Below are positions 19,389 through 61,423 of a DNA stretch of 64,000 nucleotides, in pieces. Position numbers and translations under genes: made by a program. Positions within the stretch are counted from its first letter, which is position 1; each line of letters starts with the position of its first letter. The notes under the pieces were generated by a model. The model was not told the origin of the DNA, did no database searches, and saw only the letters and a list, made by a program, of their open reading frames with translations. Source of the stretch: Psammoneis japonica (taxonomy: Eukaryota); NCBI GenBank assembly GCA_008632985.1, contig QPGO01000095.1:245681-309680 (forward strand), in the 5' to 3' direction.

Positions 19389-19887
19389 CAGTACATACAG
19401 TAGTTTCCTTTAGCACTTCTTCATGACGGCTTCGTCCTCCGGCAAAAAGGTTGGATCGAAGCCCTTATTTGTTTTCATTCCTAAGCAAACACGCGTTCAA
19501 CCTAGAGTAAATACTGTACTGATAAGAAAAGCGTTCTGACGAGGAAACTATTCTGTAGCCAGTAGAGACTGCTTTTATCAAAAAAAGGATTCCTATTCTT
19601 CGAATTTCGCACATCAATTCAAGCAGGTTTCCCGCGCTTTTTGCACGCGAGAGTGCGTTGATGCGCACGGGTTCACAAGGGGTGAAAACGACGACGGGGC
19701 TAACGTATTATTCAACGTGGAACTTTCAATTGCATCGATAGCAAGAAGTGCTTGTTCATAGTACTAAGTAACATTTCGATAACTCGAATAGAAGAGTCTC
19801 TGGCGGTTTCAAAAAGAGCTTAAAGAGATTGAAAGAAATTGACGCGTAGCAAGCAGTGTCGATTCTGTTTTTGTTTCTCCAGAAAAA

Positions 19888-21295: not shown

Positions 21296-21376
21296 AATAA
21301 ACAGCATTATTTAGAGAGTAGAATCAAAAGCTGGCTACAACAGTTTTCAACACACATGTAGATTCCACATTCTTTT

Positions 21377-21630
21377 TATTTCTTGACTTCATTCTTCATG
21401 GCAAAGCTTTGCTTAAATTCTCTTGCACGCTTGAGTGCTTGGCTTCATTGTTTTTCCAAACCTCTGCCATGGCACAATCCATTGGATCATCAGGATTGGG
21501 CGCACTCAGCAGGGCTTGAATCGACAGAGCAACACGGTTCAAATCTGCAAGGCCAGTCTGCACTTGTCCATGAGAACATCCAAACAAAATCATCCAACTT
21601 GGATCACGTGGACACTCACAAACCACACCT
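21377..21630 (-). pseudogene. Decayed 3' fragment of UBC13, copy A
   Basis: [15 protein letters not shown]...AEVWKNNEA matches the gene at 54431-55035, with TA->CA and CG->CA/TG changes. Confidence 0.85.
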
Positions 21631-22830: not shown

Positions 22831-22857
22831 TTCCATGCTGCTGGAGTGTGCACTTGA

Positions 22858-27557: not shown

Positions 27558-27671
27558 TTTGATGACAACGAGTGGCCAAGAGAGAGGAATCTTTATCTCC
27601 CTCATTGGCAGAAAAGGGTTGCTCGCCTGATGGAGAGTAACGGTGGGAGAGACGACTCTATGGTAAAAAGA

Positions 27672-27896
27672 TGTCAACACAGTACGAACTCATGCGCGAT
27701 ACGCGCGCGCTACACTTGCGCATGCGATTTCCCGCCATCGGTCTTTTTCAACTTTTCTCACAATTACAACATCTAGTGTAACAAGACATTAGCAGCTTTA
27801 CCGATTATACTGTTATCGTTGGCCCTCTTCGCTAGCGATACATCTACTATTCGACTTCAGTCGACTTCTCCTAACTCTCAGACGAGAGTTGTCGCA
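27672..27896 (+). repeat. 5' LTR of the Copia element
   Basis: tgtcaacac...gagttgtcgca; ungapped match to 35027-35251 with 18 differences. Confidence 0.97.
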
Positions 27897-28009
27897 GGTT
27901 GGGAGCCCAAGTGTCGCGCTTGATCACTCCTGCGCTCATCTCTTTCTCTCCGGTGGACGAGAATTGAGCTCCGTACATTTCTACGTACAATTCTACGTGA
28001 GTGTTGCAC

Positions 28010-28385
28010 ATGTCCGAAAGGAACTCTGCGACACTTGACGACCTTGTTGAACAACTACAAGCCCTGCAACTGCAAGAAGTGGAGCTTGTTCGTCGCATTG
28101 CCGCAGAAAGAGAAAACGGCAGAATCGCCTCACTGCGCCAACGCGAGCCGGAACCGCTCGCACTTCTGCTTCAACCACACGAGAACCAACCATCGCGGAT
28201 TTTCGTGTGGGCGACCGAGCAGTTGTCATGAACGAAATTCGTAATTTTCGATGCTCCGTTGCCATCCAAGACCGTCAAGCAACTGTCACTCGCATTGCAG
28301 AACAACGAGTGCACATCCGCACGGATGACGGTAATTCAACGAACCGTCATCCAAAGAACCTGCGTTTTCTCGCGCAATTCGCATG
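28010..28385 (+). pseudogene. Small accessory ORF upstream of gag (coiled coil plus KOW/SH3-like barrel), frameshifted ~28200
   Basis: MSERNSATLDDLVEQLQALQLQEVELVRRIAAERE, then in a second frame FRVGDRAVVMNE...ATVTRIAEQRVHIRTDDGNSTNRHPKNL. Confidence 0.5.
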
Positions 28386-29867
28386 CCAAGCAAAGCAGCA
28401 AGCATTCCACTCCCTCCTTCTCCGCCAGCCAGCATGTCCGAGGTTGCCATCAACGGACGGAAGGTGAAAGTCCGCGCAACGCCGAAAGCGTCGCAAGACA
28501 CTCTTGCTGCTCTCTGCACTGGGGCGCAGAGGAACAGGTTGGATCCTGACAAGCTCAACGACCTCTTTCTGAAGGCGACTTCGAAACAGCAGACAAAATT
28601 TGACCTCCTCAATGTCAACATCAACGATCCTGACAAGCTCGAGGATGCTTGTGACCTCGCGATGTCAATCTCAACCATGCGTTCGAACCATGTTAAGTGC
28701 GACATGGATGACGTCTTCACCATCATCGACCCGGACAAATTCACGACGCGTGATCTTTACAAGGAACACTCCACGATCACTGCAGCAGAGGTTGCCGCAA
28801 GCAACAAATGGCATTCCACCATGCTCGAGGACCCCGATGGGACTTGGGCGAGCCAAAACCTTCGTCTTGCTCACGACTGCTTCGAGCGGAACGCGTCCGT
28901 CGCACTGCAGAAGAAAGTCAACGAGACGCACCTCAAATGTGACCAGGAGGAGCAGGGCAGACCTCTTTTCTTTGTTCTCATGATGAAACTCCTTCAGAGC
29001 AACTCCGAAGAGGCTGCTCGTTGTTTGGTTTCCAACACAACCAACCTCAAGATCACCGACTTCGATGGAGAAGACGTCAGTAAAGTCGTGTCTCTCATTC
29101 GCGGTGGCTGTTCTCGACTCGCCAATCTCCAGGATCAGAAAGGACAGTCTGTCATTCCCACTGATTTTCTGGAGAATCTTGCCAAAGTCTTTCAAATGTC
29201 GAGTGTCCCCGAGTTTAATTCTCTCTTTGAGCACCTCACCAAGGACTCCAAGACTTCCAAACTCAAGCAATCGGGCTCGATGACCGCTGCAATGACCACT
29301 GCGGTGGACGACATCCTGTCCTTCACCGAAGGCGAGCATCTCGCTCTTGTCTCCTCCAACAAGTGGTCCGGCGTGACTGCTGAGACACAGGCAACTTCGT
29401 TTGTTGCGGGTGTCGTCACTTGTTTTAACTGTGGCGGCCCTCATCCTTTGTGCGACTGCAAGAAACCGGTCGACAATGCTCGTGTTCGTGCCAACAAGAA
29501 GCCATTCTTCGATGCGAAACGGGCTCAGTGCAAGAACAACTCTTCAGGATCCTCCTCTTCCGGTCCCTCCACTAAGACCATTCCCAAGAAATGGCAGCCA
29601 CCGACTGAAGCAGAAAAGAACAATGACAATCGCCGCAACATCGATGGTGAGGATCATTGCTGCCATTGCAAAACCAAGCGCTGGTGCCCGGTGACTGAGA
29701 CGGGGAACGTTGCCTCCACTCCTGCCACTGCACCTTCTCCCGCTCCGGCCGCCACGCCTGCCCCGGCACCGGCCTCCGCTCCTGTCACGGATCGAGACCT
29801 CGCCATTGCCAACGCCAAGAAGGAGATGGTCGAAACCATGTCCGGCCTCTTCACCTCCTTCACCTGA
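28383..29867 (+). CDS. gag: Copia Gag (hypermutated)
   Basis: Zinc knuckle CFNCGGPHPLCDC; LKITDFDGEDVSKVVSLIRG; only one Tyr in 494 aa. Confidence 0.85.
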   Translation: MPSKAASIPLPPSPPASMSEVAINGRKVKVRATPKASQDTLAALCTGAQRNRLDPDKLNDLFLKATSKQQTKFDLLNVNINDPDKLEDACDLAMSISTMRSNHVKCDMDDVFTIIDPDKFTTRDLYKEHSTITAAEVAASNKWHSTMLEDPDGTWASQNLRLAHDCFERNASVALQKKVNETHLKCDQEEQGRPLFFVLMMKLLQSNSEEAARCLVSNTTNLKITDFDGEDVSKVVSLIRGGCSRLANLQDQKGQSVIPTDFLENLAKVFQMSSVPEFNSLFEHLTKDSKTSKLKQSGSMTAAMTTAVDDILSFTEGEHLALVSSNKWSGVTAETQATSFVAGVVTCFNCGGPHPLCDCKKPVDNARVRANKKPFFDAKRAQCKNNSSGSSSSGPSTKTIPKKWQPPTEAEKNNDNRRNIDGEDHCCHCKTKRWCPVTETGNVASTPATAPSPAPAATPAPAPASAPVTDRDLAIANAKKEMVETMSGLFTSFT

Positions 29868-29897
29868 AGCTTCGGGCGCGCCTCCTCTCCTGAGCGT

Positions 29898-32800
29898 GTG
29901 GCCCTCTCTTCTTGCTTTTTCAACCAACCGTCCAATCCTGGAAGGGACATCCAGGCTCATTTGTCGGTCGGCCACTTTTTGCTCCTATGGTTCACTCTCC
30001 AGATTCTTGGAGAGGGAGGGACCGAAGCAGTTTCGTCACTTTTTCAGTTGCTGTTTGTTTTGGCAGGTGGATGTTTGTTCTGCTTGCTTCTCTTTTCCAA
30101 GAATCCTTTGCTTTCATGCGACGATCCACCCGACTTTGTTGTTGTTCCTTCTACCGAACCGACCTCATTTCGTCGTCCTCCTGATCGAACTCGGATGACA
30201 CATCATTCTCAGGTACGCCGCTTGGATCGGCGCCCAGTTCGAATCCCACATAGAGACCCCTTGTGGTCCTTCCTTCATCCAACGACTTGGCGTAAACAGC
30301 GCCGAACACCTGTCCCGGACAGTGCAGCGATTGCTGATCCGGATCGCTCCTGTCGAAAATCCAAGTCGTGGAAACTTTCAAGATCGAGACGTCGATCCAA
30401 ACCCAGGAAACCGAAGCCACCTAGATTTGCCCACGTTGATCCTCAACAAGAGGCCGCAGAAGCCTGCGCTCAAATCAAGCACCGCCCATTGCATCTACCT
30501 TCCGAGATGTACGAATTTCCTCATGGTGCGACTCCAACTGATTTCATTGCTTTGCTTGATCCTCTCGGTGACTGCCTGAGGACCAAACCTCGCAGCTCCG
30601 CAACACGAACGGAGCCCTCACCTTTTGCACCTCCAGACGACCCTGAAGCTTCCGAACTAGAAGAGTTCTTCCGCATCAAACACCAACTGCTACACCAAAC
30701 ATGGATCATGTGCGACATGCAGTGCGGTTGTTCGTTAGACGAATTCGTTCAAGGCATCGATCCTTCAGAACAATTCCATTTGATCAAGACACTTGCCTCT
30801 TCCAAAATGTTGCGAGCTTGTGGTCAAGCACCGACACTCTCTTGCGTCACAACCAACTTGTCATGCACGACAACAGCAACCTTTACGAGTGGCTTTGGTG
30901 GAGCAGCTGTGTTCTCTCACCAGACCATGACAGGTCCATCTCACGTTGTTGCATCCGAGCCGGATCCACCATGGCTAACTGAAGATCCAACGCAGTGTGT
31001 CAAGTCCTTCAATGATGCAAGAGATCTCGAAGGCCACCAATGTCAAGCATTGACATCGTGCTCACCCATCGACGCACCTGTTGTTCTCGACACAGGAGCA
31101 TCTTCGTCACTCACACCTCACTCAAGTGACTTTGCAGGACCGCTGGAACCCGTTGATGCCACTGCCATCAACGGATTGTCTTCAAGCACCCGAGCAGTTG
31201 GTCAAGGTTTCATGGAATGGGACGCAATTGATTGTTGGAATGTCATCCGGACCATTCGAACGTGAGCCTGCTGTGTTCCTGATGCTTCCATTCGACTCTT
31301 CAGCCCTCAAGCACATTTTCAAGAGAATGGAAACCAAGGTGAATGTCTCGTACGAGGAAACAAAGCAACCCTCACTCTTCCGAAAGGGGATGCGCTCGAG
31401 TTCCCATGTGACAAGGAAAACAACTTGCCTTTCATGATGATGTCCGAACCAATCTCAGCCGGAGTCACCCAATGCAATTTGGCTCCCATCAGTGCCGAAG
31501 CACGCCTCACTTCGTTTCTTTCTGTCACTTCTCAGACCAATCAGAATCTAACACCCGGCCAGAAGGAGCTTCTTTTGCTCCATCAGAAACTTGGCCATGC
31601 CGGCTTCCAGCACATTCAATGCTTGTGTGCAATGCCACGGGATCCCACTAAATCCCACATTGTCAAGCCTTCAACCCAAGCCGTCTCCAGTTGCACCGCA
31701 CCTTCATGTGCTGCCTGTCAACTCGCAAAGCAGAAACAATGAACACCTGACCGTTGCGGCACCTCCAATCATCCGCCGTTGACTTTGCGACAGGGAGATT
31801 TGGCTCCTGGTCAACGCGTCTCCGTTGATCAGTGCATCAGCCGTGTCCCTGGCCGTCTTCCGACGTCCAAGGGACGCGAACCCAAGAAAGACAAGTGTTG
31901 TGGAGGCACGATTTTTGTTGATCATGCTTCTGCCTGCGTCCATCTGACCCATCAAGTTGGTCTCACCGCAGGTGAAACTGTTCGTGCCAAGCAATCCTTC
32001 GAGCAGCTTAGTGACCAATTTGGGGTCCGCATCAAGTCCCACCTTGCTGACAACGTCCCGTTTGGCACCAAGGCTTTCATGGATGACCTGGAAGAAAACA
32101 ACCAGACTGTTGATTTCTCTGGTGTTGGCACTCATCATCAGAACGGCACAGCCGAGCGCTCCATCCAAACAATCACCTCATGGGCACAAGCCATGCTCCT
32201 GCACGCCATTCTCATGTGGCCTGATGCCGCCAACCTGGAGTTGTGGCCTTTTGCCATGACCCATGCGACCCACTTGTGGAACCACATCCCAAAGTCTGAC
32301 ACTCGCACCGTGCCAGTCGAGATCTTCTCCAAGCAACGCTTTGACACCTGTGCACATCTACAGTGCTTACAAGTGTGGGGTTGCCCCACACATGTTCTTG
32401 ATCCTAAGTTACAAGATGGCAAGAAACTGCCTGAGTGGGACCCCAGGAGTCACCGTGGCCAACATCTCGGCATCTCACCGGATCATTCAACTAACATCGG
32501 CCTCATTCTGAATCTCTCGACAGGCCATGTTAGCCCTCAGCATCACGTGGTCTACGACAACCACTTTGCAACGGCACCCAACAGCGACTCTGGCAGTTTC
32601 TTCCAGGATGTTCCCTTCACTGCCGACCTTTGGGAATCCCTCCTCACCGCCGACTCGCTGGTGCACCATGCTCCGCCTGAGCCTTCCGCCACCGCCAATG
32701 ACCCTCACTGTCGCTTGCCGGCTTTGCACGATGATTGGTTAACACCCGCAGAGCGCCACCATTGCGCTAATCATCGACATGACCGCCGTCAACGTCATCT

Positions 32801-35006
32801 CCAAAACTCCAAAACGGCCCCTCCCACCGTCCTTCCTTCAACCTCTTCCGTCACAGCTCCAGAGGGAGAGCTTCCTACATTGCCCGAATCATCCACTGAC
32901 AATCTAGAATCTGCAACTTCAGAGGCTCCAGAGGGAGTCGAGATCGATGAGTTCAGCGACAACAGCGACAACGAATTGTCGCTTGTTGATCATCACGACT
33001 TGCCTGAAGACCTCGACCTGGGTCCTGCTGAAGCTGAGCCACCTCAACCGGCTCCGAATGCCACCACAACACCTGCTCGGACTCAAAGCGGTTGTTCCGT
33101 CAAGAAGCCGGAACGCTTGATTGAAGCTGTGCATGCCGACATCCGCATTCCGCCCAACGAGTTGCCGAATGCCTGCAAAAATCCCAAACGTGCCATCAAG
33201 TCGGAAACACTGAACAAACAGTTCTTGATGGCCCTGCGTTGGGATGGCGTCATGAATGCACTCCGGTCCAAAGATTTGCATGCAATGCTTGACCTTTTCA
33301 ACAAAAACACCAATCAAGTTCACGGAACACTCGAAGAAATGCACCCTCTTGCCCTCGCAGCGAATGCAAATTCTGCTGATAATCCAACTTGGGAAGAAGC
33401 AATGAATGGCCCTGATCGAGCAGCTTGTCTGAAAGCTTGCGACGTCAAAATCGATTCTCCAGTCAAAGGCAAGGACGCCTGGGAAGAAGTAGACCGCCAA
33501 GATTGGATGAACGTCTTACCATCCACTTGGGCCTTCAAGTGCAAACGACACCCCGATGGGTCGATCCACAAACACAAAGCCCGCTTTTGCGTCCGTGGAG
33601 ACAAGCAATTGGAAGGCATCGACCACTTTGACACCTTTGCTCCAGTTGTCAATTGGACGACCGTGTGGCTTGTGCTCACACTTTCTCAAATTTTGGAACT
33701 TTCGACAAAACAAGTTGATCATGTCACCGCTTTCGTCCATGCTCCAATTGACAAGGATCCCAAATGGGATGCCATGACACCCGAAGAGCGAGAACGCTCT
33801 GGCATCTTCGCACAAATGCCTCGCAGATGCACCAAGCCCGGCAAAGCACTGAAACTCAAACGGACCGTGTGTGGTCTCAAGCAAGGACCTCGCAACTTTT
33901 TCCTGCACCTCAAGTCAAAACTCAAAGACGCTGGATTTCAATCGCAAGACGATGTCGATCCGTGTCTGTTTGCATCCGACAAAGTCATCTGCCTCGTGTG
34001 TGTTGATGATGCACTGTTCTTCTCTCCGAAACAAGATTGTGTCGACGAAGTGATCGAGAAACTCAAAATTGATGGCGGTCTGGCCATCGAAGTTGAAGAT
34101 TCCGTCGCAGGTTTTTTGGGGGTCCACATCGAACGCGACACCGACAATGGTGCTGTCAAGCTCACTCAGAGCGGTCCATCCAAACGTGTCGTCGAAGCCC
34201 TCAACATGGGCCATCCACCAAAGGCCCGAACGCCCACACTGGCCACTCCGTTGGCCAAGGACACCAATGGAGACCCACCAAATGGAGCCTGTAATTGTGC
34301 CAGTGTGGTTGGCATGCTCCAACATCTCCAAGGCCATTCTGGGCCAGACATTGCCTGCGCCGTTAGCTCAGCAGCCAGATTTGTTCATGGCCCTTGTCGC
34401 TCACATGAACTGGCCCTTGAATGGATGGGTCGACACCTGAAGGGCACTCTGGATGAAGGCCCAATCCTCAAGCCATCTGGGGACTTCAACATTGACGTGT
34501 TTGTTGACTCAGATTTTGCTGGACTGTGGCCGCACGAAGACAAGCATGACCCGGCTTGTGTCAAAAGCCGAACAGGATTTGTCGTTTGCATTTCCAACTG
34601 TCCTGTCATTTGGTCCAGTGAGCTTGCACCTGAGATTGCTCTCTCAACAATGGAAGCAGAGCACAGTGCTCTTTCCACTTGCATGAAAACTGTCCTTCCC
34701 TTTCCACGCACTGCACAAGCCATCTCTCAAGGCGCTGGAGTTGGTCCAGGAACTGCCAAGACCACACACACTGCTGTGTGGGAGGACAATGTTGGGGCTT
34801 TGACTCTGGCTGACATGGAACCTGGCCGAGTTACGCCCAGGTCCAAGCACTGCGCAATCAAGTGTCATTGGCTCCGTTCACAGCTCAAACCAAATCGAGT
34901 TGCTGTGTCCAAGATCGCAGCAGACTTGCAACGCGCTGATGTTCTGACCAAAGGTCTTATCACGGTTAAATTCAAGGCCACTCGAAAGTTGCTTTGCGGT
35001 TGGCAG
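29898..35006 (+). pseudogene. pol: Copia Pol (protease, integrase, RT, RNase H), inactivated
   Basis: VVLDTGAS protease; HQKLGH...CAAC; QNGTAER integrase; CLVCVDD RT; DSDFAG/QRADVLTK RNase H. In-frame TGA at 31263 and 31740. The expected terminal stop after LCGW reads CAG (35004-35006). Confidence 0.93.
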
Positions 35007-35026
35007 CTTCTTCGTTCGAGAGGGAG

Positions 35027-35251
35027 TGTCAACACAGCACGAACTCATGCGCCATGCGTGTGCGCTGCACTTGCACACGCGATTTCCCGCCATCGGTCTT
35101 TTTCAACTTTTCTCACAATTGCAACATCCAGTGTAACAAGACATCAGCAGCTTTGCCGATCATGCTGTCATCGTTGGCCCTCTTCGCTAGCGATGCATCT
35201 ACTGTTCGACTTCAGTCGACTTCTCCTAACTCTCAGACGAGAGTTATCGCA
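35027..35251 (+). repeat. 3' LTR of the Copia element
   Basis: Follows the PPT; ends tatcgCA, followed by TSD AAAGA. Confidence 0.97.
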
Positions 35252-35646
35252 AAAGACAGCCAAATAGAAAGCACTGCGACGTCAGCTATAACATAGAGTG
35301 TGCTAATTAAAACGCACTGCGCGCAATCCCTCTCCATCAGCATAGCATGTTGACCGCCAGCCTGGCGCACAAATGCGAGACTACCTACCGGCGGATGCGC
35401 GCCCGCGCGTGCGTTGATGCGGTCGTGCCAACGAAAAACATCCACAAAACGACAACGGGCAAGGTGGGTGTATTATTCAACGTGTCACTTTCAATTGCAT
35501 ATCGATAGCAAGAAGTGCTTGTTCATAGTACTAAACAACACTTCGATAGCTCGAATAGAAGTTGAGTCTCTGGTGGTTTCCACAAAAGCTGAAAGATTGA
35601 AAGAAATTGTAGCAAGCAGTTTTGATTCTTCTTTAGGTTTTCAAAA

Positions 35647-37071
35647 ATGTCACGAACAAGCAGTTCTCTGAATAGACGTCTCGAGTCTGAATTGTACGAG
35701 AGCATCCAAAACCATGATTGGGATTACGCCGAAGAATTATTAGTGGAAGCTTCGGAGCTCCCCGTCGTTCGACGAACCGGCGACAATACTCTTTTGCACT
35801 TTGCCACCGAACAAGAAGGAGTCCCACCCGACGTGATTCGAAATTTGTCGTCCGTCTTGAGCTGGCAACAGCAATATGCGACTAACAAGTGGGGTAAGAC
35901 GCCCCTTCACAATGCTATTTTATTCAAACAGAATTTCGAGGTGATTTCTGTTTTGCTGGAAATTCACTTGGTTGCAATCGACATGGCGGACTGTAGGGGG
36001 CTTAAAAGGGGGTGGACACCCGTGGATTACTTTTTTACGCGGTTGTTGGAACGTGAAGAAGAGGATGACGAACAGCCAGACGTGCTCACGGAAGATCTAG
36101 CTGCCATGCTGCGACTTTTGACAAGAGCTTGGATGGAATACTACAAAACAAGTGGCTTGGAAAGACTTTCGACTCCGCTTCATCGAGCAGTCCAATTTGC
36201 GTCTTCATACGAGGATTTGCCATTGTCGGTTTTGAAGATTCTGCTGGAAACATGCCCGTCCATGGTACAAGTACAAGACAGCAATGGTTGTACACCACTC
36301 CACTTGGCTTCCAGACGCGATGGTGCAAATGCAAATGAGCGACTGAAGCTCTTGCTGAACGTGACTCCCGCAGCCGTTTTGGAATCCCGGGATAAAAACG
36401 GCCGAACACCCCTTTCCAGCGCTCTCTTTTGGGTTGCCTCTCTGGAAATCTTCGAGACACTGGTTGCTGCAAATTCGGCCAGCATTTTCATTCCAGACAA
36501 GAGCAACAAGACACCGCTCGACCGTGTGAGTGGCCGGATTGCAAACGACGAGAGTGCTGTAGTATCCGACTATTACCTGAATGTTGCCAAGACGCTCGTC
36601 ATGGGCCGCCGCTGCAATTCCGACTCTGTTTTATTGCGCAAGTCCATTCTCCTTGAGAAATGTCCTGTCGAGTTGGTACGTGTGTTTCTCCGGGTTTTTC
36701 CACAACAAGCTCTGTGGAAGGACGAAAAGGGTAACCTTCCTCTCCACCTTGCAGCCACCGTGAAACCCAAACCACCTGAACTCGTTGCTTTTACGTCTCT
36801 GCTGAAAGAACTCATTCAAGCCTTTCCAGCAGGACCAAAGACAACCAATGACGCTGGTCTCTTGCCACTGGCATCCTTTATTTGTGCCGAGCGCAAGTGG
36901 AATGAAGGACTTGAGACAATCTTGCAAGCTCATCCAGCAGCCGTCATGGATCAACACTTGCCTCCATGTGCCGTGACGCAGCTACTGTCCAAATTGGGCA
37001 AACGCTCAGAAAATCCAACCGTTCTTTATCAATTGCTACAAGAGGCTCCGTCTCTTGTCAGTCGAGTGTAG
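35647..37071 (+). CDS. Ankyrin-repeat protein, copy B (intact, 474 aa)
   Basis: Uninterrupted ORF with GDNTLLHFA, GKTPLHNAI, GCTPLHLAS, GRTPLSSAL, GNLPLHLAA; normal Tyr/TpA content. Confidence 0.9.
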   Translation: MSRTSSSLNRRLESELYESIQNHDWDYAEELLVEASELPVVRRTGDNTLLHFATEQEGVPPDVIRNLSSVLSWQQQYATNKWGKTPLHNAILFKQNFEVISVLLEIHLVAIDMADCRGLKRGWTPVDYFFTRLLEREEEDDEQPDVLTEDLAAMLRLLTRAWMEYYKTSGLERLSTPLHRAVQFASSYEDLPLSVLKILLETCPSMVQVQDSNGCTPLHLASRRDGANANERLKLLLNVTPAAVLESRDKNGRTPLSSALFWVASLEIFETLVAANSASIFIPDKSNKTPLDRVSGRIANDESAVVSDYYLNVAKTLVMGRRCNSDSVLLRKSILLEKCPVELVRVFLRVFPQQALWKDEKGNLPLHLAATVKPKPPELVAFTSLLKELIQAFPAGPKTTNDAGLLPLASFICAERKWNEGLETILQAHPAAVMDQHLPPCAVTQLLSKLGKRSENPTVLYQLLQEAPSLVSRV

Positions 37072-37146
37072 AATAAGCATAATTTAGATTAGAATGAAGC
37101 TGGCTACAACAGTTTTCAACATGTTGTAGATTCCACATTTTTCTTT

Positions 37147-37338
37147 TTATTTCTAGACTTCATTCTTCATGGCAAAGCTTTGTATAAATTCTCTTGCACA
37201 CTTGAGAGCTTCAGTTTCATTGTTTCTCAACCTCCACCGTGGCATTGTCCAGTGGATGATTGGGATTGGGTGCACTCAGCAGGGCTTGAACAAACAGCAG
37301 CATGGTTCGCTGCAAAGCTGGACTCCACTTGTCCTTGA
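37147..37338 (-). pseudogene. Decayed 3' fragment of UBC13, copy B, truncated by a LINE
   Basis: Aligns to 54431-54625; homology ends at ccacttgtccttga (~37338). Confidence 0.8.
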
Positions 37339-43700: not shown

Positions 43701-43709
43701 GTGATGTGC

Positions 43710-48019: not shown

Positions 48020-49150
48020 ATGACTGAGGATAGTATTGACGTCGCACATGAAGGCAATTCTTTTTTCTCACGTAGAAACAACCGTGACTTCTACGTAGGA
48101 TACCACCAAGATTTGGCGCCTCATTTCTCTTTCAAAGATCGACCATGGCGCCACCTTTTGAAGCCCCCCAAAACGCAGGAAGATGCAAAGAAGGCAAAGC
48201 TTTCTTTTATGACTGACTTCTTCTCAAAAAACAAATGTCATGGCCATCCAAAGAAGAAGAAAGCGAAGTTTGCAAAGGATGCTGCCAGCAGTGCTGCCAG
48301 AACATCATCGACGAGGCACTTTCTTCGTGCGGTCTGCCAAGAAGACTGCTGCAGCTGAGAATGACAAAGACAAAAAGCGCAAGGCATCAATGGATGGTGG
48401 CAAGAGTGATGGGTCCATTGCAGTGAAGAAACCAAGGACGAATTGGTCCAAGGAGCCTCAGCTGCAAATTGTCAACCATGACGGACGCAGTGAACGAGTG
48501 GCTTGGTTGAGAAGGAATGGCATCATGACAGCAATGGAGAAGCTCATTCAATGCAAGCATTGGCTGGTTTGGTTAAAAGTGTTTGGTGTTGTCAAAAATG
48601 TTTTTATCCTTCATTTGTTGCAGTGCGCCTGCGTGACTTGCCCGCTCTGAGAAGATTTTTGGACAAAACAGAAATCCACAACTCTCAATGACACACAATG
48701 GGACCAACCTGGCAGGATGCATTGTGCAATTGCTCCCAACATTGAAAAAGAAATGGGGAAATTGGTGCAAGCACCATTGAGACATCACGCCGTAAAGTGG
48801 GACATCAGCCGCACGCACTGTGTTGCACTGCTGCAGTTTGTTGCGTGCACGCAACTTGGAAACACATGATGCACAACAGATGATGCAAGTTATGAACTTG
48901 TTCATTTTTGGCATAAACACCATGCTGCAAAGAGAACTGGTGTCCGTTCATCAGCATTTGTGCCACATTCAAGAGGCAAGAAAAGCACTGTTCTCAATGG
49001 AAGTTCAAGGAAGGGCAAAAGTGCACCGAACATGATGCAGCAACTCACAAAACTTTAATGGAGCTTGCAGCTTGTGAGGGGCCAATGCAAAGTGTGCCTC
49101 AATTTGCACTGTGCCTTAAATTGCATTGGACTCCAGTGAAAAATTCAGTG
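48020..49150 (+). pseudogene. Decayed N-terminus of a probable DNA-transposon protein (AT-hook remnant)
   Basis: MTEDS...FFSKNKCHGHPKKKK (consistent with KRRGRPKKKK after CpG decay) and KKPRTNWSKEP; progressively loses TA/CG downstream. Confidence 0.4.
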
Positions 49151-49269
49151 GACTTTTTTTAGGATGAAGCCACAGACCCCATGACCCAAGCATGTGTCGG
49201 TGGAAAGGTGGCACAGAGCTCTTCAAGACACATTTAGAGTCTCATGTTGAATGGAGACAACTGGGGAAG

Positions 49270-52200
49270 CTTCATGCATTCCTCCTGACCAGGTGAGGCA
49301 TGGACAGACTTTGTGGAGATTTTGCTGTGATCACACGTGTGTGACGCACTGCAGACTTCTGTCTTTCTCAATCTGCTTCACCTCGCCTCGCAAAAACAGC
49401 GCTTGTCATGCTCAAGGCATTTTCCCTTGCACCAGCAACAAGATCACAGCAATCAACAAATGAAAACACTGTGCTGTCCAGCTGTTTGTTGTTGAGTCAA
49501 GTGTTGTTGATCCAGAGTTGTTTGTTGCTCACAATGTCAGCTGCTGCAGACCTGACAGAAATTGAAGACAACTGGGTGGAAGAAAACAACAACTCCTTGC
49601 TGCTGTCTAAATGGCAGATGAGTCTTCATGCAGAGACCATCACAGGAGCCAAAAGACTGGTGTTGTGATGTCAGCACTGCTGTCATTGAGCCAAACCACA
49701 TCATGCACTGTGCACGCAACTGAGAGCACACACAATTGTGTGCGACAAACTCAAATCTCATTCAAATCCTGTCACTCCCCAGTTTGCTTGAGGAGTCCAC
49801 AGCAATGGATTCAAGGTCAGATTGGTTGAAAGCCTTGGGATCAAAGTTCCAAAACATTAGAGGACAAAGGATGTTCCAGACCTGGGAGCAGCCCCAGTGC
49901 TTGCTGAGAATGTCAGCTGGGTTGCAGGAACCTTGGGAAACTGGAGGCAATCACCTCGCACACATGGTGGAACAAGAGGGCAGTGTGTCGCTTGTGTAAC
50001 TTGGAGTGTGGGATGGCAGCACTGTCCACAACCAACTTGTTGTCCCCAAACATGTGACATGTTTCACGAATGGGGATGCCAAGGCAACGCAAAGTGATGT
50101 GCAGACCATCAATGAGTGCATCTGTGAGGCGTCCATCAGCAACAAGTTGTGCCTTGTGCCACCCGTCATGTTTGACGTTGCAGACTAGATGCACCCTGAT
50201 CTTCTTGTGTGGAGTCCTTGCAGTGTCCACAGTCATAGAAAACCTTGTGCTCACCCCAGCTGAGTCATCTCAAGGTCTGTTGCATCCCCAACTTGTGGTT
50301 GCCATTGCACTTGTCAAGGGCCAAGGTGTGCCTGCAATCTTGTGGCACTTCATGCCTGTGCTTGTGTTGTGGTGCAGTGCAAAATGAGCACAGCTTGGCT
50401 TGGTTGGTCATGTGGAATGGCTTCTTCTGGTGCAGAGCCACAGTTTGGAAGAGTTTCCAGCTTTTGGTTTCAAGCAGGCTGTGTTTGCCTGTGCAGATGA
50501 CACAGGTGATGGGATTGTCCTTGGCAATGATGGCAAGGGGCTCCAATGCAATCTCCCCATTCTCCCATTCAAGCATGACATTGTGGCTTGGGCTGGATGG
50601 TCCTTTGTGCAAAATGATGTCGGAACTTCCAAAGAGTGGAGTCCTTGTCTTCTTGCTTGATGTGGTGCATGATGTCATTGCAGGCAAGGATTTTTTCACA
50701 TTCATCATTGTCAACAGAGCAAACAAATTTGACCAGTTCCAGGTTGTTGCCAATTTTCCAGTCATGGTCTTCAACCTTCAATGGCCTTGAAGATGCGGGC
50801 TCTGCAACATTGTCTGTCCTCAACCTCAGAGTCAAAGGCCTTGAAGATGTGGGCTCTGTGACGTTGTCAGTCCTCAACCTTGGGGTCAAAGACTGGCATT
50901 TTGAGCATCCTGATTGCCTCCCCATCTGGTGGATCTGGTGAATCCTTGAAGTTGTGTGGGGGTTTGATGACGGGTTTGGCAGATTTCTTGTCAGGATGAG
51001 GGTCAAGATGCAGGTTGGAAGTGGACGGATCATGGGCACATTCAGCATTGGTGTGCGGGCATGTGGCAATGTGTAGAAGGCCACCTTTGATGTCGGCAGG
51101 GATGACACATCCATTGATGGTGGTGATGCACTGCAGACCATTGGGAACCTTGATCAACCGATCATTGATGCAGTGTTTGTGCCATGCAAGTTGGCCACAC
51201 GAGTGCATGGTGATGCCACCATTTGCACTGTGATCCATGAGAGCACCCTTGCAAGTCGAGTTGTGTGTCAAGGTGGAGCAGACAACATTGTGACTGTTGG
51301 CATGATGACAAGTGTGGCCATTGATCTCAATGTTGGCAGCAGCAGCATGGGAGGATGTAGATCTGGGGGGTTCTCACCAGAGTGGGCCGATGGTGGCCTT
51401 TTGGGCTTTCAGGTGCAAGGAGGCATTGCAAGTCACCAGGTGGCAAAGGCTTGCACCTGGTGAGGTGTGCCAGGATGGGGTTGGCATTGGCTGCATCTGC
51501 TGTGGCATCGGGTGGTTTTGGGGCTGATGCAAGATTGTGAGCATTGGCAGACAAGTTGACACCTGGCAGTTGCCGGCACAGACAGTGTGCAAGCCAAGGA
51601 TGATGGCCTTGGTAGACTGAGGCAAGGCATCCTAGATGTGTTGGTGATCCAGCAAGATGCAGCACCATTGTTCCCTGGTGAGGGAGGTGCCACGAGTCTG
51701 TGCAGCGCAGGCTTGGATGATGTCAACATCACTGTCGATGTTGAACAACACATCATCTTCAGGGTTGTTGGGGGCCAGGTCATGTTTGCAGATGGCACAG
51801 CACGGAGTGCATGAGGCTGTCTTGGGGTGAACGTGCTGTTGCACTGTGCTGCCATAGAGAGGAGGAGCCCACAGCACTGTTTGAGTGAAACGCCCATGCC
51901 ATTCTGTGTGCAGAACTGATTGGCTTGGTTCTTTGCTGAACGGAGTTTTTCAACAGGGTGAATGGCATTCTCAAGCATGATGTGTTTCTGGCCAGCAAGA
52001 AGCTGTCCGCATTTGGGATGAGAGCTTCACACTTGCAAAGTCAGTCCTGCCAGTGAAGCATGAAGGCATGAGCAGAGCCTTTCCAGGTGCCATCACCAAG
52101 GCCAAGGCGAGCGGTGGTGAGGTGCGTGAGAAGGGTTGAGGACTCCAGAGATGCGCAAGCATGTGCAAGGGTGCACTTGGACAGTTCACAACACACTGCT

Positions 52201-52950
52201 TGAGCATCAGAGGAGCCAACATGTTCACAAACAAGTGCCTTGCCTTTGTCACTTTGCAAGATGCACTCAAATGTGGCGAACATGTGCTTCTGTTGTTTGG
52301 TGAGCAGGGCCTTGTCCTCAGCTGCAGAGGGCTTGCATGTTGGATCAAGAATGCGGTCGATGTTCTGGGAGCGGGCCTGTGCGACAACAGAGGTGCGCCA
52401 TGTGTGCCAATGTTTGTTGGGCTTGAGAGTTGCAAAGGCAAGTGGGTCACGTTTGCTGCCTCATTTAAAGTCATGCACGGGGTCACATGGTTTTGGGGGC
52501 AATGAGCCAGGTGCAGGAGCAGATGGCACTGTGCCCGCTGTGGAAAGGGACGCTGCACACTCAGGGCTAAGACGACAGTCAGCAAACCCCTCATGCACAA
52601 ACAAGGCAGGGTTGTTGCTGACATTGGCATCTCTGTGCACTTTTGCCATGCATGGGCCAATCAACGCAGCCATCTGTGCTTTGCAGCTGCGTGGCAAGGG
52701 CATTTGATTGGTGCCATCATTGCAAACCAGGGCATCGAGTTGCGTCAGAGTAAAAGTGAAGAGATCCTGGCAGGAGTCAGTGCCATCAATGCTGAAGGTG
52801 AAGAAAAGTGGACTGTCTGTGACTTGATTGGGAACAGGCAGTGCCTAAAATGTGCTCAAAGCCATTGTTTTGTTGCTGCTTAAAATGACTTGAAACTGGA
52901 CTTGAAGTCTTGAACTGTCTGCAAATCAGAAGCCACTGGGCTGTGATGTC
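49270..52950 (-). mobile_element. Second, older and internally deleted Copia (different CoDi lineage); ends approximate
   Basis: RNase H NPADILSKHWGCSQVW and MFGDNKLVVDS...KLHKRH; RT start KKIRVHLVCNVKHDG; EWENGEIALEPL; gag ILQSDKGKALV...DAQ; PPT GGGGAG at ~49775-49780. Confidence 0.82.
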
Positions 52951-53154
52951 CCATTCACAGTTGTGTGCCAAGCTTCCACCCGGTCCACAGAGTTGTGCCA
53001 GCATGTCCAAACCCCCAGCTGGCAACACTTTGGGTTGCCTGAGAGCAGAGTGATGGGTTTAAAACCCCTGCTGACAAGCCAGACAACTCCTTGTTTTCAC
53101 TTTTGCAGGGCAACAACATCCTGTGCCTTTTTAGAATCAGACGCAGTGCCGGCT

Positions 53155-54343
53155 TGGTGCAGCAATGACAGCATGTGACCAACGGGTGGGGTCTGATGCC
53201 TCTTCACCATGCCATTTTGTTCAAACAGAATCTTGAGGTGATTTCTGATTTGCTGGACATTCACTTGAATCCACATGGTGGTGGACCGTGGCGGGCGCCG
53301 GACACCCATGGATTGCATGGCTTTTTTCGGCACTTTTTGGAACGTGAAGGAGAGGATGACAAACAGCCAGATGATGTGCTCAGTGCAGATCTAGCTGACA
53401 TGCTGCAACTTTTGACAAGAGCTTGGATGGAATGCCACAAAGCAAGTGGCTCAGAAAGACTTTCGACTCCGCTTCATCGAGCAGTCGAAGTTGCGTTTTC
53501 CCACAAAAGGATTTGTCATTCACATTGGCGGTTTTGAAGATTCTGCTGGAAACAAGCCTGTTCACAGTACAAGCACAAGACAGCAATGGGTGTACACCAC
53601 TCCACTTGACTTCCAGACACGATGATGCAAATGAGCGACTGAAGCTCTTGCTGAATGTGACACCCGCAGCTGTCTCTTGGAATCCCGGGATAAAAACGGC
53701 CAAACACCCCTTTCCAGCGCTGTCTTTTGGTTTGCCTCTCTGAAAATTTTTGAGACGCTTGTAGCTGCCGAAAGACAAGAGCAACAAGACACCGCTCGGC
53801 TGATTGCAAGCGACGAGGGCACTGTGGCATCCGAGTGTTACCTGAACCTGAATGTTGCCAAGATGCTCGCCATGGGCCGCCGCTGCAATTCCGACTCTGT
53901 GTTATTGCGCAAGTCCATTCTCCTTGAGAAATGCCCTGTCGAGTTGGTACGTGCGTTTCTCCGGGCTTTTCCAGAACAAGCTCTGTGCAAGGACGAAAAG
54001 GGTAACCTTCCTCTCCACCTTGCAGCCACCATGACACCCAAACCATGTGAACGCGAGGCTTTTACGTCGTTACTCGAGAAACTCATTCAAGCTTTTCCAG
54101 CAGGACCAAAGACAACCAACGACGCTGGTCTGTTGCCACTGGCGTCCTTTGTTTGTGCCAAGCGCAAGTGGAACGAAGGACTCGAGACACTCTTGCAAGC
54201 TCATCCAGCAGCCGTCATGGATCAACATTTGCCTCCCTGTGCCGTGACGCAAGCTACTGTCCAAATTGGGCAAACGCTCAGACAACCCAACCGTGCTCTA
54301 TCAATTGCTACGAGACGCTCCGTCTCTGGTCAGTCGAGTGTAG
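53155..54343 (+). pseudogene. Ankyrin-repeat gene copy C: 5'-truncated, 5' part hypermutated, frameshifted
   Basis: Aligns to ~35860-37071; WMEYYKT reads WMECHKA at ~53430. Confidence 0.88.
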
Positions 54344-54430
54344 AATACGCATAGTTTAGAGTAGAATCATCATCATCAAGCTGGCTACAACAGTTTTCAA
54401 TGTATATGTAGATTCCACATTTTTCTTTTT

Positions 54431-55035
54431 TTATTTCTTGACTTCATTCTTCATGGCAAAGCTTTGCGTAAATTCTCTGCACGCTGAGTGCTTCGGCTTC
54501 ATTGTTTTTCCAAACCTCCGCCACGGTATTGTCCAGCGGATCATCGGGATTGGGCGCACTCAGCAGGGCTTGAATCGACAGCAACACGGTTCGAATCTGC
54601 AGGGCCGGACTCCACTTGTCCTTGAGAATATCCAAACAGATTCGTCCCAACTTGTCCACGTTGGGGTGATAAATTTTGGTTAAAAACCGGACTTTGGGTG
54701 GTGCCATGGGATAATCGGCGGGCAAAAATAATTCCAATTGAAAGACACCGCCCTCGTAGGGAGAATCGGTGGGGCCTTCAATGGCCACGGCAAAGTAGCG
54801 TAAATTGTCCGCGTATGGAGTGGCACTAATGCCAACGACAGGTTCTGCAATCAAACGTTGCGTTTCCTATGAAAAATGAAAACGAGAAAAAAGCAAACGA
54901 GTTAAGAGGCGCAGCCATAATGTACATAGAGTGGGAAGAGTGAGTGAAAACTCCATCTATGCGCGAGTAACAACAACACTGCTTGAACTTTTACCTTAGA
55001 ATTCGACGCGGAAGACCCCCGTTGTTGGATGACAT
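54431..55035 (-). CDS. UBC13: Ubiquitin-conjugating enzyme E2 N (Ubc13); intron 54867-54994; apparent single-A deletions at ~54996, ~54484 and ~54477
   Basis: [13 protein letters not shown](K)|ETQRL...[60 protein letters not shown]. The copy A fragment supplies the in-frame C-terminus [18 protein letters not shown]. Confidence 0.93.
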
Positions 55036-55676
55036 TTTTAATTCTTCTTCTGCAAACGCTTGTAAGAAATACACAAAAACAATGCAATACTAGCGGCGAT
55101 ACAACTACTACAACAGCGCCGCCACCGCCGCTTCCCCAGCAAGAGCAATGAGACAAAGACCGCGTGTGTTGGCTTTTTTCGAGGCGGATGGAACGAAATA
55201 ATTCTCAAATTGAAAGGACATTCTAATACATTTATACTAATTATGAATTCTCCATTATTTTCTTTTTTAAATATGCTATTGGTTTAGGCCTTTCATTATC
55301 TAATATGCCATTTGATAGAGCCTTTCAGCCTCGCAAATAGATTGTCCTTGTCAACCATAGTCGCACGAAATTTTTCCGTTCCGGTATTGACCTACGTGAA
55401 ATCTATGCATGTAGCATTATTATTGATTTTCACATGCATGTTTTCTGGTACAAAATTTGTGTAACATTCCAACCGCTGACACAGCGAAACGTAGGATGTA
55501 GTACTGAATCTACGCAGCGATTCAATTTTTTGCACAGTTTGCAACAAAAACAACGGTGAAACAAATAAAAAATACTGTTGTTGTTGTGTCATGTAAGACA
55601 ACTCTCCTCAGCATATCCATCCTACCGATTCTTCATTTTGACAGCAGAGAGACAGTTGATTGCAATTGAAAAAGCC

Positions 55677-61422: not shown

Positions 61423-61423
61423 N

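What the first reader, a model, noticed from the sequence alone, without database searches (positions are those of the whole stretch)
53155..54700. Hypermutation spreads from transposon DNA into a host gene and fades over about 0.5-1 kb
Ankyrin copy C versus intact copy B: near the insertion edge caatatgcgactaac->cagcatgtgaccaac, gctattttattc->gccattttgttc, and gaatactacaaa->gaatgccacaaa (YY->CH). From ~53570 onward TAs are increasingly retained (tgtacacc, gataaaaac, ggtaacc), and the adjacent UBC13 is untouched. Mirror gradients occur at 21.3-21.7 kb, 37.1-37.35 kb, ~46.2 kb and 48.0-48.3 kb. This is collateral damage to host sequence, comparable to RIP leakage.
Basis: seen in the sequence. 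Interest (0 to 1): 0.72.

Follow-up and report, generated by a model that had tools for sequence, protein, structure and literature searches.

The report
TA-erasing mutation leaks into gene remnant
A mutation process that rewrites TA and CG steps in repeated DNA of this alga also rewrote the first 700 or so bases of a broken gene copy lying next to such DNA and then fades out, which suggests it is aimed at a stretch of chromosome rather than at the repeats' own sequence.

Summary
Ankyrin copy C (53160-54343) is a 5'-truncated paralogue of A (19693-21601) and intact B (35458-37338). Its 5' end abuts a TA/CG-erased multi-copy block.

- **Gradient in C.** With ancestral state by majority rule, C lost TA to TG/CA at 3/4, 3/8 and 1/16 sites at 0-400, 400-750 and over 750 bp from the junction. 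CG loss was 8/18, 5/21 and 1/21. B lost 0/28 TA.
- **Not a background effect.** Other transitions and transversions are flat along C. This argues against age, gene conversion or selection as the cause.
- **Other borders.** The dead E2 fragments ending copies A and B show the same edge effect over about 150 bp, almost all at CG. A 1500-codon exonuclease-like gene shows a 1-kb TA-only gradient.
- **Leak is not universal.** A young Copia's mutated tract stops inside the element. The 46.2-kb border is sharp.

Best reading (0.55): a TpA-specific A-to-G DNA mutator plus CpG decay act on a positional, probably silent-chromatin, domain whose edge is not tied to repeat ends. "Host gene damage" is overstated, because C is a pseudogene.

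The scan has noted the mutator in other pieces of this genome. The only paper found on it concerns Bigelowiella. The quantified spread is the new part.

The parts
48150..53150 (.). TA/CG-erased block next to copy C. At least its last 750 bp is multi-copy repeat DNA. No recognisable transposon gene.
   Evidence: TA observed/expected 0.00-0.13 and CG 0.14-0.40 per 500 bp over 48501-53000. Summed contig depth 215-2759 over 52400-53151 against 54.7 on 54656-55200, falling to 176 and then 85 just after 53152. None of the ORFs scanned in this block (70 aa or longer, 47.9-53.2 kb) gave a Pfam hit at E<=0.01. No homologue for ORF 51974-52660.
53140..53160 (.). Junction between the repeat block and the truncated ankyrin copy C.
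   Evidence: Homology to A and B begins at 53160-53163 even in purine/pyrimidine coding. A contig spans 53030-53227.
53160..53865 (+). Leak zone: the 5' part of ankyrin pseudogene copy C, carrying the TA-to-TG/CA and CG-to-TG/CA signature with falling intensity.
   Evidence: TA lost 3/4 and then 3/8; CG lost 8/18 and then 5/21. Site list; the last hits are at 53836 (TA) and 53864 (CG). B-C dN/dS is 1.36 in the first third.
53866..54343 (+). Distal part of copy C, without the signature apart from one TA and one CG hit 9 bp apart at 54150 and 54159.
   Evidence: TA 1/16 and CG 1/21 lost beyond 750 bp. Background substitutions are as high as in the proximal zone. 11 of 12 TAs in erasable contexts are kept.
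54344..54443 (.). Spacer between the convergent ankyrin and E2 genes; all TA kept.
   Evidence: 0 of 6 strict TA/CG sites lost in 54344-54470.
54444..54866 (-).
   Evidence: Pfam UQ_con E=4.5e-47. TA observed/expected 0.50-0.60 and CG 0.86-1.02.
35458..37184 (+). Copy B: intact ankyrin gene (ORF 35626-37071, 481 aa) with its promoter; the unmutated reference.
   Evidence: Ank Pfam hits. 0/28 ancestral TA lost. The promoter and 5' coding region share 15 of A's 21 TA, with only 2 TA-to-TG/CA differences.
37185..37338 (+). Dead E2 3' fragment at the end of copy B, abutting the erased block 37.34-46.2 kb: mirror edge effect.
   Evidence: 10/12 TA+CG sites of the live E2 sequence changed to TG/CA, against 8/47 in the interior, p=3e-5. 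Background is flat.
19693..21413 (+). Copy A: frameshifted ankyrin pseudogene with an isolated patch of TA loss at 20501-20901.
   Evidence: Alignment; sites; TA lost 0/4, 3/8, 1/16.
21414..21601 (+). Dead E2 3' fragment at the end of copy A, abutting the erased block from 21.6 kb: mirror edge effect.
   Evidence: 7/12 against 8/47, p=0.007. Opposite-strand outcomes in A and B at 54519, 54545 and 54606 (C coordinates) show independent hits.
22950..27471 (-). Exonuclease-like gene of about 1500 codons (DNA_pol_A_exo1; homologues also carry DUF6729). Its 3' 40% is TA-erased with a 1-kb gradient, and it has a premature TGA at 23647-23649. Whether it is a host or a mobile-element gene is undecided.
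   Evidence: Conserved Tyr became Cys/His at 7/12 positions at nt<=24495 and 0/13 at nt>=25191, p=0.0016. TA per 100 nt is 0 (23500-24100), 0-3 (24100-24999), 1-6 above 25200, with CG normal.
27665..35253 (+). Copia LTR retrotransposon whose TA-only erased tract runs from about 27.9 to 35.19 kb, i.e. stops inside the element.
   Evidence: RVT_2 E=8.6e-23. LTRs are 92% identical in bases and 99.6% in purine/pyrimidine coding. LTR alignment and TA track.

Best explanation
Two DNA-level mutation processes act here: a TpA-specific A-to-G change on either strand (TA to TG or CA), and CpG-to-TpG/CpA decay. Both act on a positional domain that is centred on repeated DNA but whose border is not tied to the repeat's last base. 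Where the neighbour is non-functional DNA, the domain overshoots by about 0.15-1 kb with falling intensity. Examples are the truncated ankyrin copy C, the dead E2 fragments of copies A and B, and the tail of the exonuclease-like gene. Where a live promoter or gene is adjacent, the tract stops at or even inside the repeat.

Shown:
- the signature, its restriction to TA and CG, and its decay with distance
- its independence from background divergence
- that it recurs at several borders
- that duplicated copies as such are not hit.

Inferred:
- the domain is silent chromatin that spreads from the repeat
- the TpA change is adenine deamination in DNA
- the CpG change is deamination of methylated cytosine.
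For: 1. Signature and decay in C: TA lost 3/4, 3/8, 1/16 and CG lost 8/18, 5/21, 1/21 with distance. Trend p=5e-6; an exponential fit gives a length of about 470 bp, and a step at about 700 bp fits equally well.
2. Specificity: proximal TA-context transitions 6/14 against 11/261 (p=5e-5), and CG-context 13/54 against 7/207 (p=9e-6). There is no excess distally.
3. Not age or gene conversion: C's own non-TA/CG transitions are 0.042 and 0.034 per base proximally and 0.033 and 0.033 distally. Transversions are likewise flat. B-C dS is flat at 0.14-0.19.
4. Not selection: synonymous target bases were hit at 5/25 proximally, against 0/29 distally when non-coding bases are included (p=0.017). The distal TAs that were kept sit in erasable contexts, 11/12.
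5. Replication at other borders: A 7/12 and B 10/12 against 8/47 each, with flat background and some opposite-strand outcomes. In the exonuclease-like gene, conserved Tyr became Cys/His at 7/12 against 0/13, with a graded TA density.
6. The edge is not tied to repeat ends. The Copia LTRs show 18 differences, 17 of them TA/CG against TG/CA. The 3' LTR carries the mutated form in 15 and the 5' LTR in 2, and the last ~75 bp of the 3' LTR keeps 4 of 6 TA (my count on the alignment). B's promoter is untouched. One copy of repeat R (18717-19557) is unmutated, while two others lack TA at every aligned TA site of R1, mostly as TG or CA.
7. Duplication is not the trigger: B 0/28 TA lost. The D1/D2 pair has 124 transitions and 151 transversions, with TA against TG/CA split 9:9.
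8. The change happened in DNA after integration, because LTRs are identical at insertion (established knowledge of LTR retrotransposition) yet differ here in this way.
Against: - Numbers are small: 28 TA and 60 CG sites in C.
- Gradient and step cannot be separated.
- Copy A has 3/8 TA lost in mid-copy, 500-900 bp from the nearest erased DNA, while the 14 TA sites nearer that edge are kept. That is not a monotonic spread.
- The mirror effect in A and B rests on 11 CG sites and only 1 TA site, so for those borders it is mostly CpG decay.
- No outgroup was available: the best homologue is 29% identical. Polarity therefore rests on three-copy parsimony. Four sites near the junction where A and C share CA against TA in B were left out as ambiguous.
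- No chromatin, methylation or expression data exist here, so 'silent domain' and 'spreading' are inference.
- The neighbour's transposon nature is unproven.
Confidence: 0.55

Rival explanations
1. There is no spreading. The mutator acts by default on any DNA that is not kept in an active state. The gradient in C then reflects a protective influence reaching out from the live E2 gene (its 3' transcript or open chromatin), not a leak from the repeat.
For: - All leak zones are dead sequence: truncated C, and the E2 fragments in A and B.
- Borders next to live genes or promoters are sharp or lie inside the repeat.
- The mid-copy TA patch in pseudogene A lies away from any edge.
Against: Pseudogene A keeps 14 TA sites in 20956-21414, next to erased DNA, with no live E2 gene beside it. 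It would have to be still transcribed. The two models predict the same pattern in this window.
Confidence: 0.25
2. Mosaic origin: the first 700 bp of C were copied by ectopic gene conversion from an already erased paralogue elsewhere in the genome.
For: - Summed contig depth over the ankyrin 3' half is 230-490 against 54.7 on single-copy DNA, which hints at more family members than the three in the window.
- Branch lengths and A-B dS vary along the gene: 0.27-0.34 in the 5' two thirds against 0.065 in the 3' third. So conversion has occurred in this family.
Against: - B-C dS and C's own background substitutions are flat across the supposed conversion boundary.
- The intensity falls in three steps rather than one.
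- The same edge effect appears independently in A and B.
Confidence: 0.07
3. Selection artefact: the mutator hit all of C evenly, and purifying selection removed hits from a still-functional 3' half.
For: B-C dN/dS falls from 1.36 to 0.48 to 0.33 along the gene. An ORF of 239 codons is open at 53635-54354.
Against: - Synonymous and non-coding target bases are also unhit distally: 0/29 against 5/25, p=0.017.
- C lacks its first ~80 codons and its promoter. Frameshifting indels in 53204-53432 are confirmed by a gap-free contig.
- TA-poor DNA gives long open frames by chance.
Confidence: 0.05
4. Chance or alignment artefact.
For: Few sites; there are indels in the 5' third of the alignment.
Against: The trend survives removal of 26 of 65 sites near gaps (12/19 against 2/20, p=0.0008). 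It recurs at three other borders.
Confidence: 0.03

Closest known systems
TpA hypermutation of integrated giant-virus and virophage DNA in Bigelowiella natans (Mettrop et al., bioRxiv 10.64898/2026.01.13.699255). I read the abstract, all of Results and the Discussion; figures and supplements were not seen.
   Same: A:T-to-G:C transitions occur only at TpA, as TA to TG or CA depending on the strand. They are confined to particular genomic regions, leave TpA depletion with CpA+TpG enrichment, and are also seen on transposon-like coding sequences. The authors propose an adenosine deaminase acting on DNA.
   Different: - A different eukaryotic supergroup; this genome is a diatom according to earlier notes of this scan, which I did not test.
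- Here TpA loss is near total and is often joined by CpG loss.
- The preprint's main text has no occurrence of flank, boundar-, spread, border, adjacent or diatom, and none of trinucleotide or context. It only notes that one hypermutable region was extended by about 21 kb beyond the earlier viral annotation.
- Border behaviour, spread length and the YTAR sparing are not described there.
[quoted passage not shown] I saw passages of PMC4943192, which cite Irelan 1994, Fudal 2009 and Van de Wouw 2010; I did not read those three.
   Same: A repeat-associated mutator also mutates neighbouring non-repeat, often genic, sequence.
   Different: RIP changes C to T and lowers GC. It needs duplicated DNA of about 400 bp at 80% identity, and it acts before meiosis. 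Here the change is A to G at TpA plus CpG decay, and duplicated copies are not targets as such: B 0/28 TA lost, D1/D2 ordinary.
Spreading of DNA methylation and heterochromatin from transposons into flanking DNA, with CpG decay. For diatoms, passages of PMC4504042 say that many Phaeodactylum transposons carry H3K9me2/3 and H3K27me3. Spreading distances in plants and animals are recalled, not checked.
   Same: The CG-to-TG/CA component decays over about 0.3-0.4 kb from the junction, as expected if cytosine methylation reaches slightly beyond the repeat.
   Different: The TpA component has no counterpart in that literature. It can occur without CpG loss (Copia, exonuclease-like gene), and it reaches further than CpG loss at the borders where both can be placed.

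Membership tests
TpA-specific hypermutation (as in Bigelowiella natans) | The excess mutations are A-to-G / T-to-C transitions at TpA, giving TpG or CpA. | tested here: met
   C proximal zone: 6/14 TA-context bases changed, all by transition, against 11/261 other A/T bases. 12 of the 18 Copia LTR differences are TA against TG/CA with the 3' LTR mutated. In repeat R1 against R2/R3, TA pairs with TG/CA in 20 of 31 aligned TA columns in both copies.
TpA-specific hypermutation (as in Bigelowiella natans) | Regional confinement, with TpA depletion and CpA+TpG enrichment. | tested here: met
   Blocks with TA observed/expected 0.00-0.13 and TG/CA 1.5-2.6, beside genes at TA 0.4-0.9.
TpA-specific hypermutation (as in Bigelowiella natans) | A measured, present-day raised mutation rate in the region (mutation-accumulation lines). 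| not testable with these tools
   Only one assembly and contigs of one sample were available.
TpA-specific hypermutation (as in Bigelowiella natans) | Targets are of foreign (viral or transposon) origin. | tested here: inconclusive
   Copia and a Gypsy-type integrase lie in erased DNA. But host-derived ankyrin and E2 sequence is also hit, one repeat copy escapes, and the block beside C has no recognisable mobile-element gene.
Repeat-induced point mutation (RIP) | C-to-T transitions (CpA to TpA in Neurospora) that lower GC content. | tested here: not met
   The direction is the opposite: TA is destroyed, not made. GC of the erased blocks is 0.45-0.54.
Repeat-induced point mutation (RIP) | Duplicated sequence is the trigger. 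| tested here: not met
   B shares more than 1.4 kb at 83-86% identity with two copies within 35 kb, yet lost 0/28 TA. The most similar 3' halves are the least mutated. D1/D2 are unmutated.
Repeat-induced point mutation (RIP) | Leakage into adjacent unique DNA. | tested here: met
   An analogous outcome only: decay over about 0.4-0.75 kb into copy C.
CpG decay of methylated DNA | CG-to-TG/CA transitions in excess of other C/G transitions. | tested here: met
   13/54 against 7/207 in C's proximal zone. In the E2 fragments, CG was lost at 9 of 11 sites in B and 6 of 11 in A. Methylation itself was not measured.

The most novel reading that the evidence does not exclude
The TpA mutator of this alga is guided by a chromatin domain, not by recognising repeated or foreign sequence. 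It has three measurable properties: a spread length of roughly half a kilobase into unprotected flanks; a reach greater than that of CpG methylation decay; and a tetranucleotide preference (RTAY erased most, YTAR largely spared). On this reading it erodes whatever gene remnants, and perhaps gene ends, lie beside repeats, and so shapes how duplicated genes die in these genomes.
Probability: 0.4. Interest if true: 0.8.

Novelty: new variant of a known kind. Interest (0 to 1): 0.62.

Why it matters
The paper searches here turned up a single preprint on TpA hypermutation, in an unrelated alga, and it does not address how targets are chosen at their edges. Three paralogous copies in one window give before/after sequence across borders. 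They show the following:
- The signature crosses from repeat DNA into host-derived DNA and fades.
- Being duplicated is not enough to be hit.
- Tract ends can also fall inside a transposon.

Together these point to positional (chromatin or transcription-state) targeting and away from homology sensing of the RIP kind. They also give a length scale that a chromatin map or mutation-accumulation experiment could test directly. For annotation, gene ends and pseudogenes beside repeats in such genomes will carry Tyr-to-Cys/His and similar changes, and long spurious open frames.

Tried and rejected
- Outgroup for polarity: the best homologue of ankyrin B is 29% identical, which is useless for site-wise ancestral states.
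- Transposon identity of 47.9-53.2 kb: none of the ORFs scanned there (70 aa or longer) gave a Pfam hit at E<=0.01. ORF 51974-52660 has no homologue. There is no internal direct or inverted repeat even in purine/pyrimidine coding, and no look-alike in earlier scan windows.
- Expression: no RNA holder is listed for 53000-56000.
- Polymorphism from reads: contigs of paralogues co-map at 90% likeness, so the other letters seen on copy C cannot be read as alleles.
- Step against exponential decay: the likelihoods are within about 1-2 units of each other, so this is undecided.
- Hidden homology of C upstream of 53160 to the 5' part of A or B: none.
- Strand bias of hits in C: TG 4, CA 3 at strict sites, so none is visible.
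- Sites where A and C share CA against TA in B (53172, 53180, 53213, 53504): not counted as hits. A and C also share transversions against B there, so shared descent or change in B is as likely as parallel hits.
- Literature: searches found no description of TpA erasure in diatoms or of its spread. This covers only the held library.
Full report
**1. Setting.**
The window is eukaryotic. Earlier notes of this scan call the genome a diatom, which I did not test.

A 500-bp dinucleotide profile shows gene-like DNA with TA observed/expected (o/e) of 0.4-0.9 and CG about 0.8-1.3. It alternates with blocks in which TA is 0.00-0.13, CG is 0.0-0.4 and TG/CA are 1.5-2.6. These blocks lie at 21.5-23 kb, 37.4-46.2 kb, 48.5-53.1 kb and 59-64 kb.

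A second state, with TA erased but CG kept, covers 23-24.1 kb and 28-35.2 kb. So two processes are at work, both converging on TG/CA: TA to TG/CA, and CG to TG/CA.

The scan has noted this TpA erasure in other pieces of the same genome. The only paper I found on such a process is a 2026 preprint on Bigelowiella natans.

**2. The three copies.**
- BLAST and a MAFFT alignment give copy A at 19693-21601, copy B at 35458-37338 and copy C at 53160-54654.
- B holds an intact 481-codon ankyrin ORF (35626-37071; Ank families).
- A has frameshifts.
- C lacks the promoter and roughly the first 80 codons. It has frameshifting indels, and those in 53204-53432 are confirmed by a gap-free 229-nt contig.
- Downstream of C lies a live ubiquitin-conjugating enzyme gene on the minus strand (UQ_con E=4.5e-47).
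- A and B each carry only the last 180-210 bp of that gene as a dead fragment. The C locus is therefore the original arrangement, and A and B are segmental copies.
- In purine/pyrimidine coding, which is blind to transitions, C's homology still begins at 53160-53163. The junction is therefore a true breakpoint and not homology hidden by hypermutation.
- A read-derived contig bridges 53030-53227.

**3. The observation.**
The counts below are for copy C.

| Site set | TA lost to TG/CA | CG lost to TG/CA |
|---|---|---|
| Strict (A=B), before 53900 / after | 6/7 / 1/14 (p=0.0009) | 13/29 / 1/16 (p=0.008) |
| Majority rule, 0-400 / 400-750 / over 750 bp | 3/4, 3/8, 1/16 | 8/18, 5/21, 1/21 |

- On the same majority-rule sites, A lost TA at 0/4, 3/8, 1/16 and CG at 0/18, 2/21, 1/21. 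B lost TA at 0/28 and CG at 2/18, 1/22, 3/21.
- The logistic trend for both dinucleotides has likelihood-ratio p=5e-6. The half-loss distance is about 660 bp for TA and about 340 bp for CG (strict sites). An exponential of length about 470 bp and a step at about 700 bp fit equally well.
- Dropping 26 of 65 sites that lie within 8-10 columns of a gap or in poorly matching columns leaves 12/19 against 2/20, p=0.0008.

**4. Why it is the hypermutation signature and not something else.**
- *Specificity.* In C's proximal zone, transitions hit 6/14 TA-context bases against 11/261 other A/T bases. They hit 13/54 CG-context bases against 7/207 other C/G bases. In the distal zone the figures are 1/21 against 7/211 and 1/32 against 6/184 (Fisher tests).
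- *Age and gene conversion.* C's own background transitions and transversions are the same in both zones, and B-C dS is flat at 0.14, 0.19 and 0.18. Neither a younger or converted 3' half nor a faster clock explains the contrast.
- *Selection.* Synonymous target bases were hit 5/25 proximally. Distally, with non-coding bases included, the figure is 0/29 (p=0.017).
- *Sequence context.* The single TA kept in the first 400 bp is a CTAG, and YTAR contexts are largely spared in this window's erased blocks. Beyond 750 bp, 11 of 12 TAs in erasable contexts are kept.

**5. Other borders.**
- *Copies A and B.* Measured against the live gene beside C, the dead E2 fragments changed to TG/CA at 7/12 (A) and 10/12 (B) TA+CG sites in the last ~150 bp. 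In the interior the figure is 8/47 for each (p=0.007 and 3e-5), with flat background.
  - Eleven of those twelve sites are CG, so this is mainly the CpG component.
  - Opposite-strand outcomes in A and B at three sites show independent hits.
- *Exonuclease-like gene.* The ORF 23650-27471(-) has eight homologues of 879-1591 residues at 33-42% identity.
  - Homology runs on past a TGA at 23647-23649 to about nt 23000, including a C-terminal Cys-rich motif.
  - Of 13 conserved tyrosines at nt>=25191, 9 are Tyr and none is Cys/His. Of 12 at nt<=24495, 2 are Tyr and 7 are Cys/His (p=0.0016).
  - TA per 100 nt rises from 0 (23500-24100) through 0-3 (24100-24999) to 1-6 (above 25200), while CG is normal. 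This is a 1-kb, TA-only gradient inside one coding unit.
  - Whether this gene is host or mobile is open. Its family (DNA_pol_A_exo1 with DUF6729) is patchily spread in eukaryotes, which is a lead only.
- *Sharp border at 46.2 kb.* A 190-bp tandem array ends at 46207 and TAs resume at 46222.
- *Border at 48.15-48.5 kb.* TA stops about 350 bp further out than CG. This rests on composition only.

**6. Tract ends inside a transposon.**
The Copia element at 27665-35253 has RVT_2. Its LTRs are 92% identical in bases and 99.6% identical in purine/pyrimidine coding.

The LTRs show 18 differences (my count on the alignment):
- 17 are TA or CG in one LTR against TG/CA in the other.
- The 3' LTR holds the mutated form in 15 and the 5' LTR in 2.
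- The last ~75 bp of the 3' LTR keeps 4 of 6 TAs.

LTRs are identical at integration (established knowledge), so the changes arose in DNA afterwards.

The tract runs from about 27.9 to 35.19 kb and stops short of both ends. Each end lies within 200-400 bp of a gene start: the exonuclease-like ORF at 27471, and ankyrin B at about 35650. B's promoter and first 80 codons, 205-610 bp from the element, share 15 of A's 21 TAs and have only 2 TA-to-TG/CA differences.

**7. Duplication is not the trigger.**
- B lost no TA, although it shares more than 1.4 kb with two nearby copies.
- The most similar parts of the copies are the least mutated.
- A second duplicate pair, 4777-6098 and 9538-10876, shows ordinary divergence: 124 transitions, 151 transversions, and TA against TG/CA split 9:9.
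- Repeat R has one unmutated copy (18717-19557). Two others (21900-22804, 43736-44621) have no TA left at any aligned TA site of R1, mostly as TG or CA, and in 7 columns the two copies took opposite directions.

**8. The neighbour of C.**
No transposon protein, LTR or inverted repeat was found in 48-53.15 kb.

Contigs of run X1 pile up on 52400-53151 at a summed depth of 215-2759, against 54.7 on the single-copy E2 gene. The pile ends between 53151 and 53245. The tool warns that summed depth is not a copy number. I use it only to say that this DNA is repeated and that the repeat ends at the junction.

**9. Interpretation.**
The data fit a positional domain centred on repeats. Its edge overshoots into unprotected DNA and recedes from live promoters. 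That the domain is silent chromatin is inference.

The TpA chemistry is most simply adenine deamination in DNA, as the preprint proposes. The CpG part is most simply deamination of methylated cytosine.

TpA loss reaches further than CpG loss at C, at the exonuclease-like gene and at 48.2 kb, and it occurs alone in the Copia. So the two processes are separable.

The main rival is default exposure of all inactive DNA, with protection spreading from active genes. It predicts the same pattern here. The mid-copy TA patch in pseudogene A favours that rival slightly.

**10. Comparison with the known.**
- The signature matches the Bigelowiella process. That preprint's main text does not treat flanks, borders, spreading or sequence context.
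- RIP leakage is alike in outcome only.
- Searches found no diatom report.
- Within this scan, note e1-7550447 left leakage into promoters unsettled, and note e1-7619531 reported part of a host gene rewritten. The paralogues here allow the first site-by-site measurement.

**Verdict.** This is a new variant of a barely described kind; interest 0.62.

Noticed in passing
window 21650-23000, 37350-46200, 48500-53150, 59000-64000, compared with gene regions: The TAs that survive in erased blocks depend on their neighbours. As a fraction of normal density, YTAR contexts are largely spared: TTAA 0.65, TTAG 0.49, CTAA 0.38, CTAG 0.13. RTAY contexts are almost gone (0.00-0.02) and mixed contexts are at 0.02-0.14. 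This suggests a preferred target of R-T-A-Y. It is not mentioned in the preprint's main text.
   Followed up: partly
window 27665-27898 and 35020-35253: The Copia LTR pair is asymmetric. The 3' LTR carries 15 of the 17 TA/CG-to-TG/CA differences and the 5' LTR only 2. The erased tract therefore starts at the inner end of the 5' LTR and stops about 60-75 bp before the end of the element.
   Followed up: partly
window 22950-27471, minus strand: An exonuclease-like gene of about 1500 codons (DNA_pol_A_exo1; homologues also carry DUF6729). It has a premature TGA at 23647-23649 and a TA-only erased 3' 40%. Conserved Tyr became Cys/His at 7 of 12 positions there. Whether it is a host gene or a mobile-element gene is undecided.
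   Followed up: partly
window 18717-19557, 21900-22804, 43736-44621: A three-copy repeat, R. The copy upstream of ankyrin A is unmutated. The other two have no TA left at any aligned TA site of R1, mostly as TG or CA, in opposite directions at 7 sites. Copies R1 and R2 flank ankyrin copy A in direct orientation.
   Followed up: partly
window 20501-20901: Pseudogene copy A lost 4 TAs in a 400-bp patch in mid-copy, while the 14 TA sites between that patch and the erased block are kept. An edge-spreading model does not explain this.
   Followed up: no
window 54150-54160: The only TA hit and the only CG hit in the distal half of copy C lie 9 bp apart. Most other contigs of the family read TA and CG there. 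This hints that the two processes can strike the same small patch.
   Followed up: no
window 54995-54999: The first exon of the E2 gene (ATG at 55035) is out of phase with the main exon in the window sequence. A read-derived contig has one extra base after 54997 that would restore the frame (my reading), so the assembly probably has a 1-base deletion there. Single frameshifts in this assembly should therefore be read with care.
   Followed up: partly
window 38299-38598 and 41315-41614: A direct repeat pair that is 84.9% identical in bases but 97% in purine/pyrimidine coding. It flanks an integrase-like ORF (Integrase_H2C2, 39316-39969) and is probably the LTR pair of an erased Gypsy-type element.
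   Followed up: no
window 4777-6098 and 9538-10876: Two paralogous gene segments, 76% identical, with ordinary divergence and no TA erasure.
   Followed up: partly
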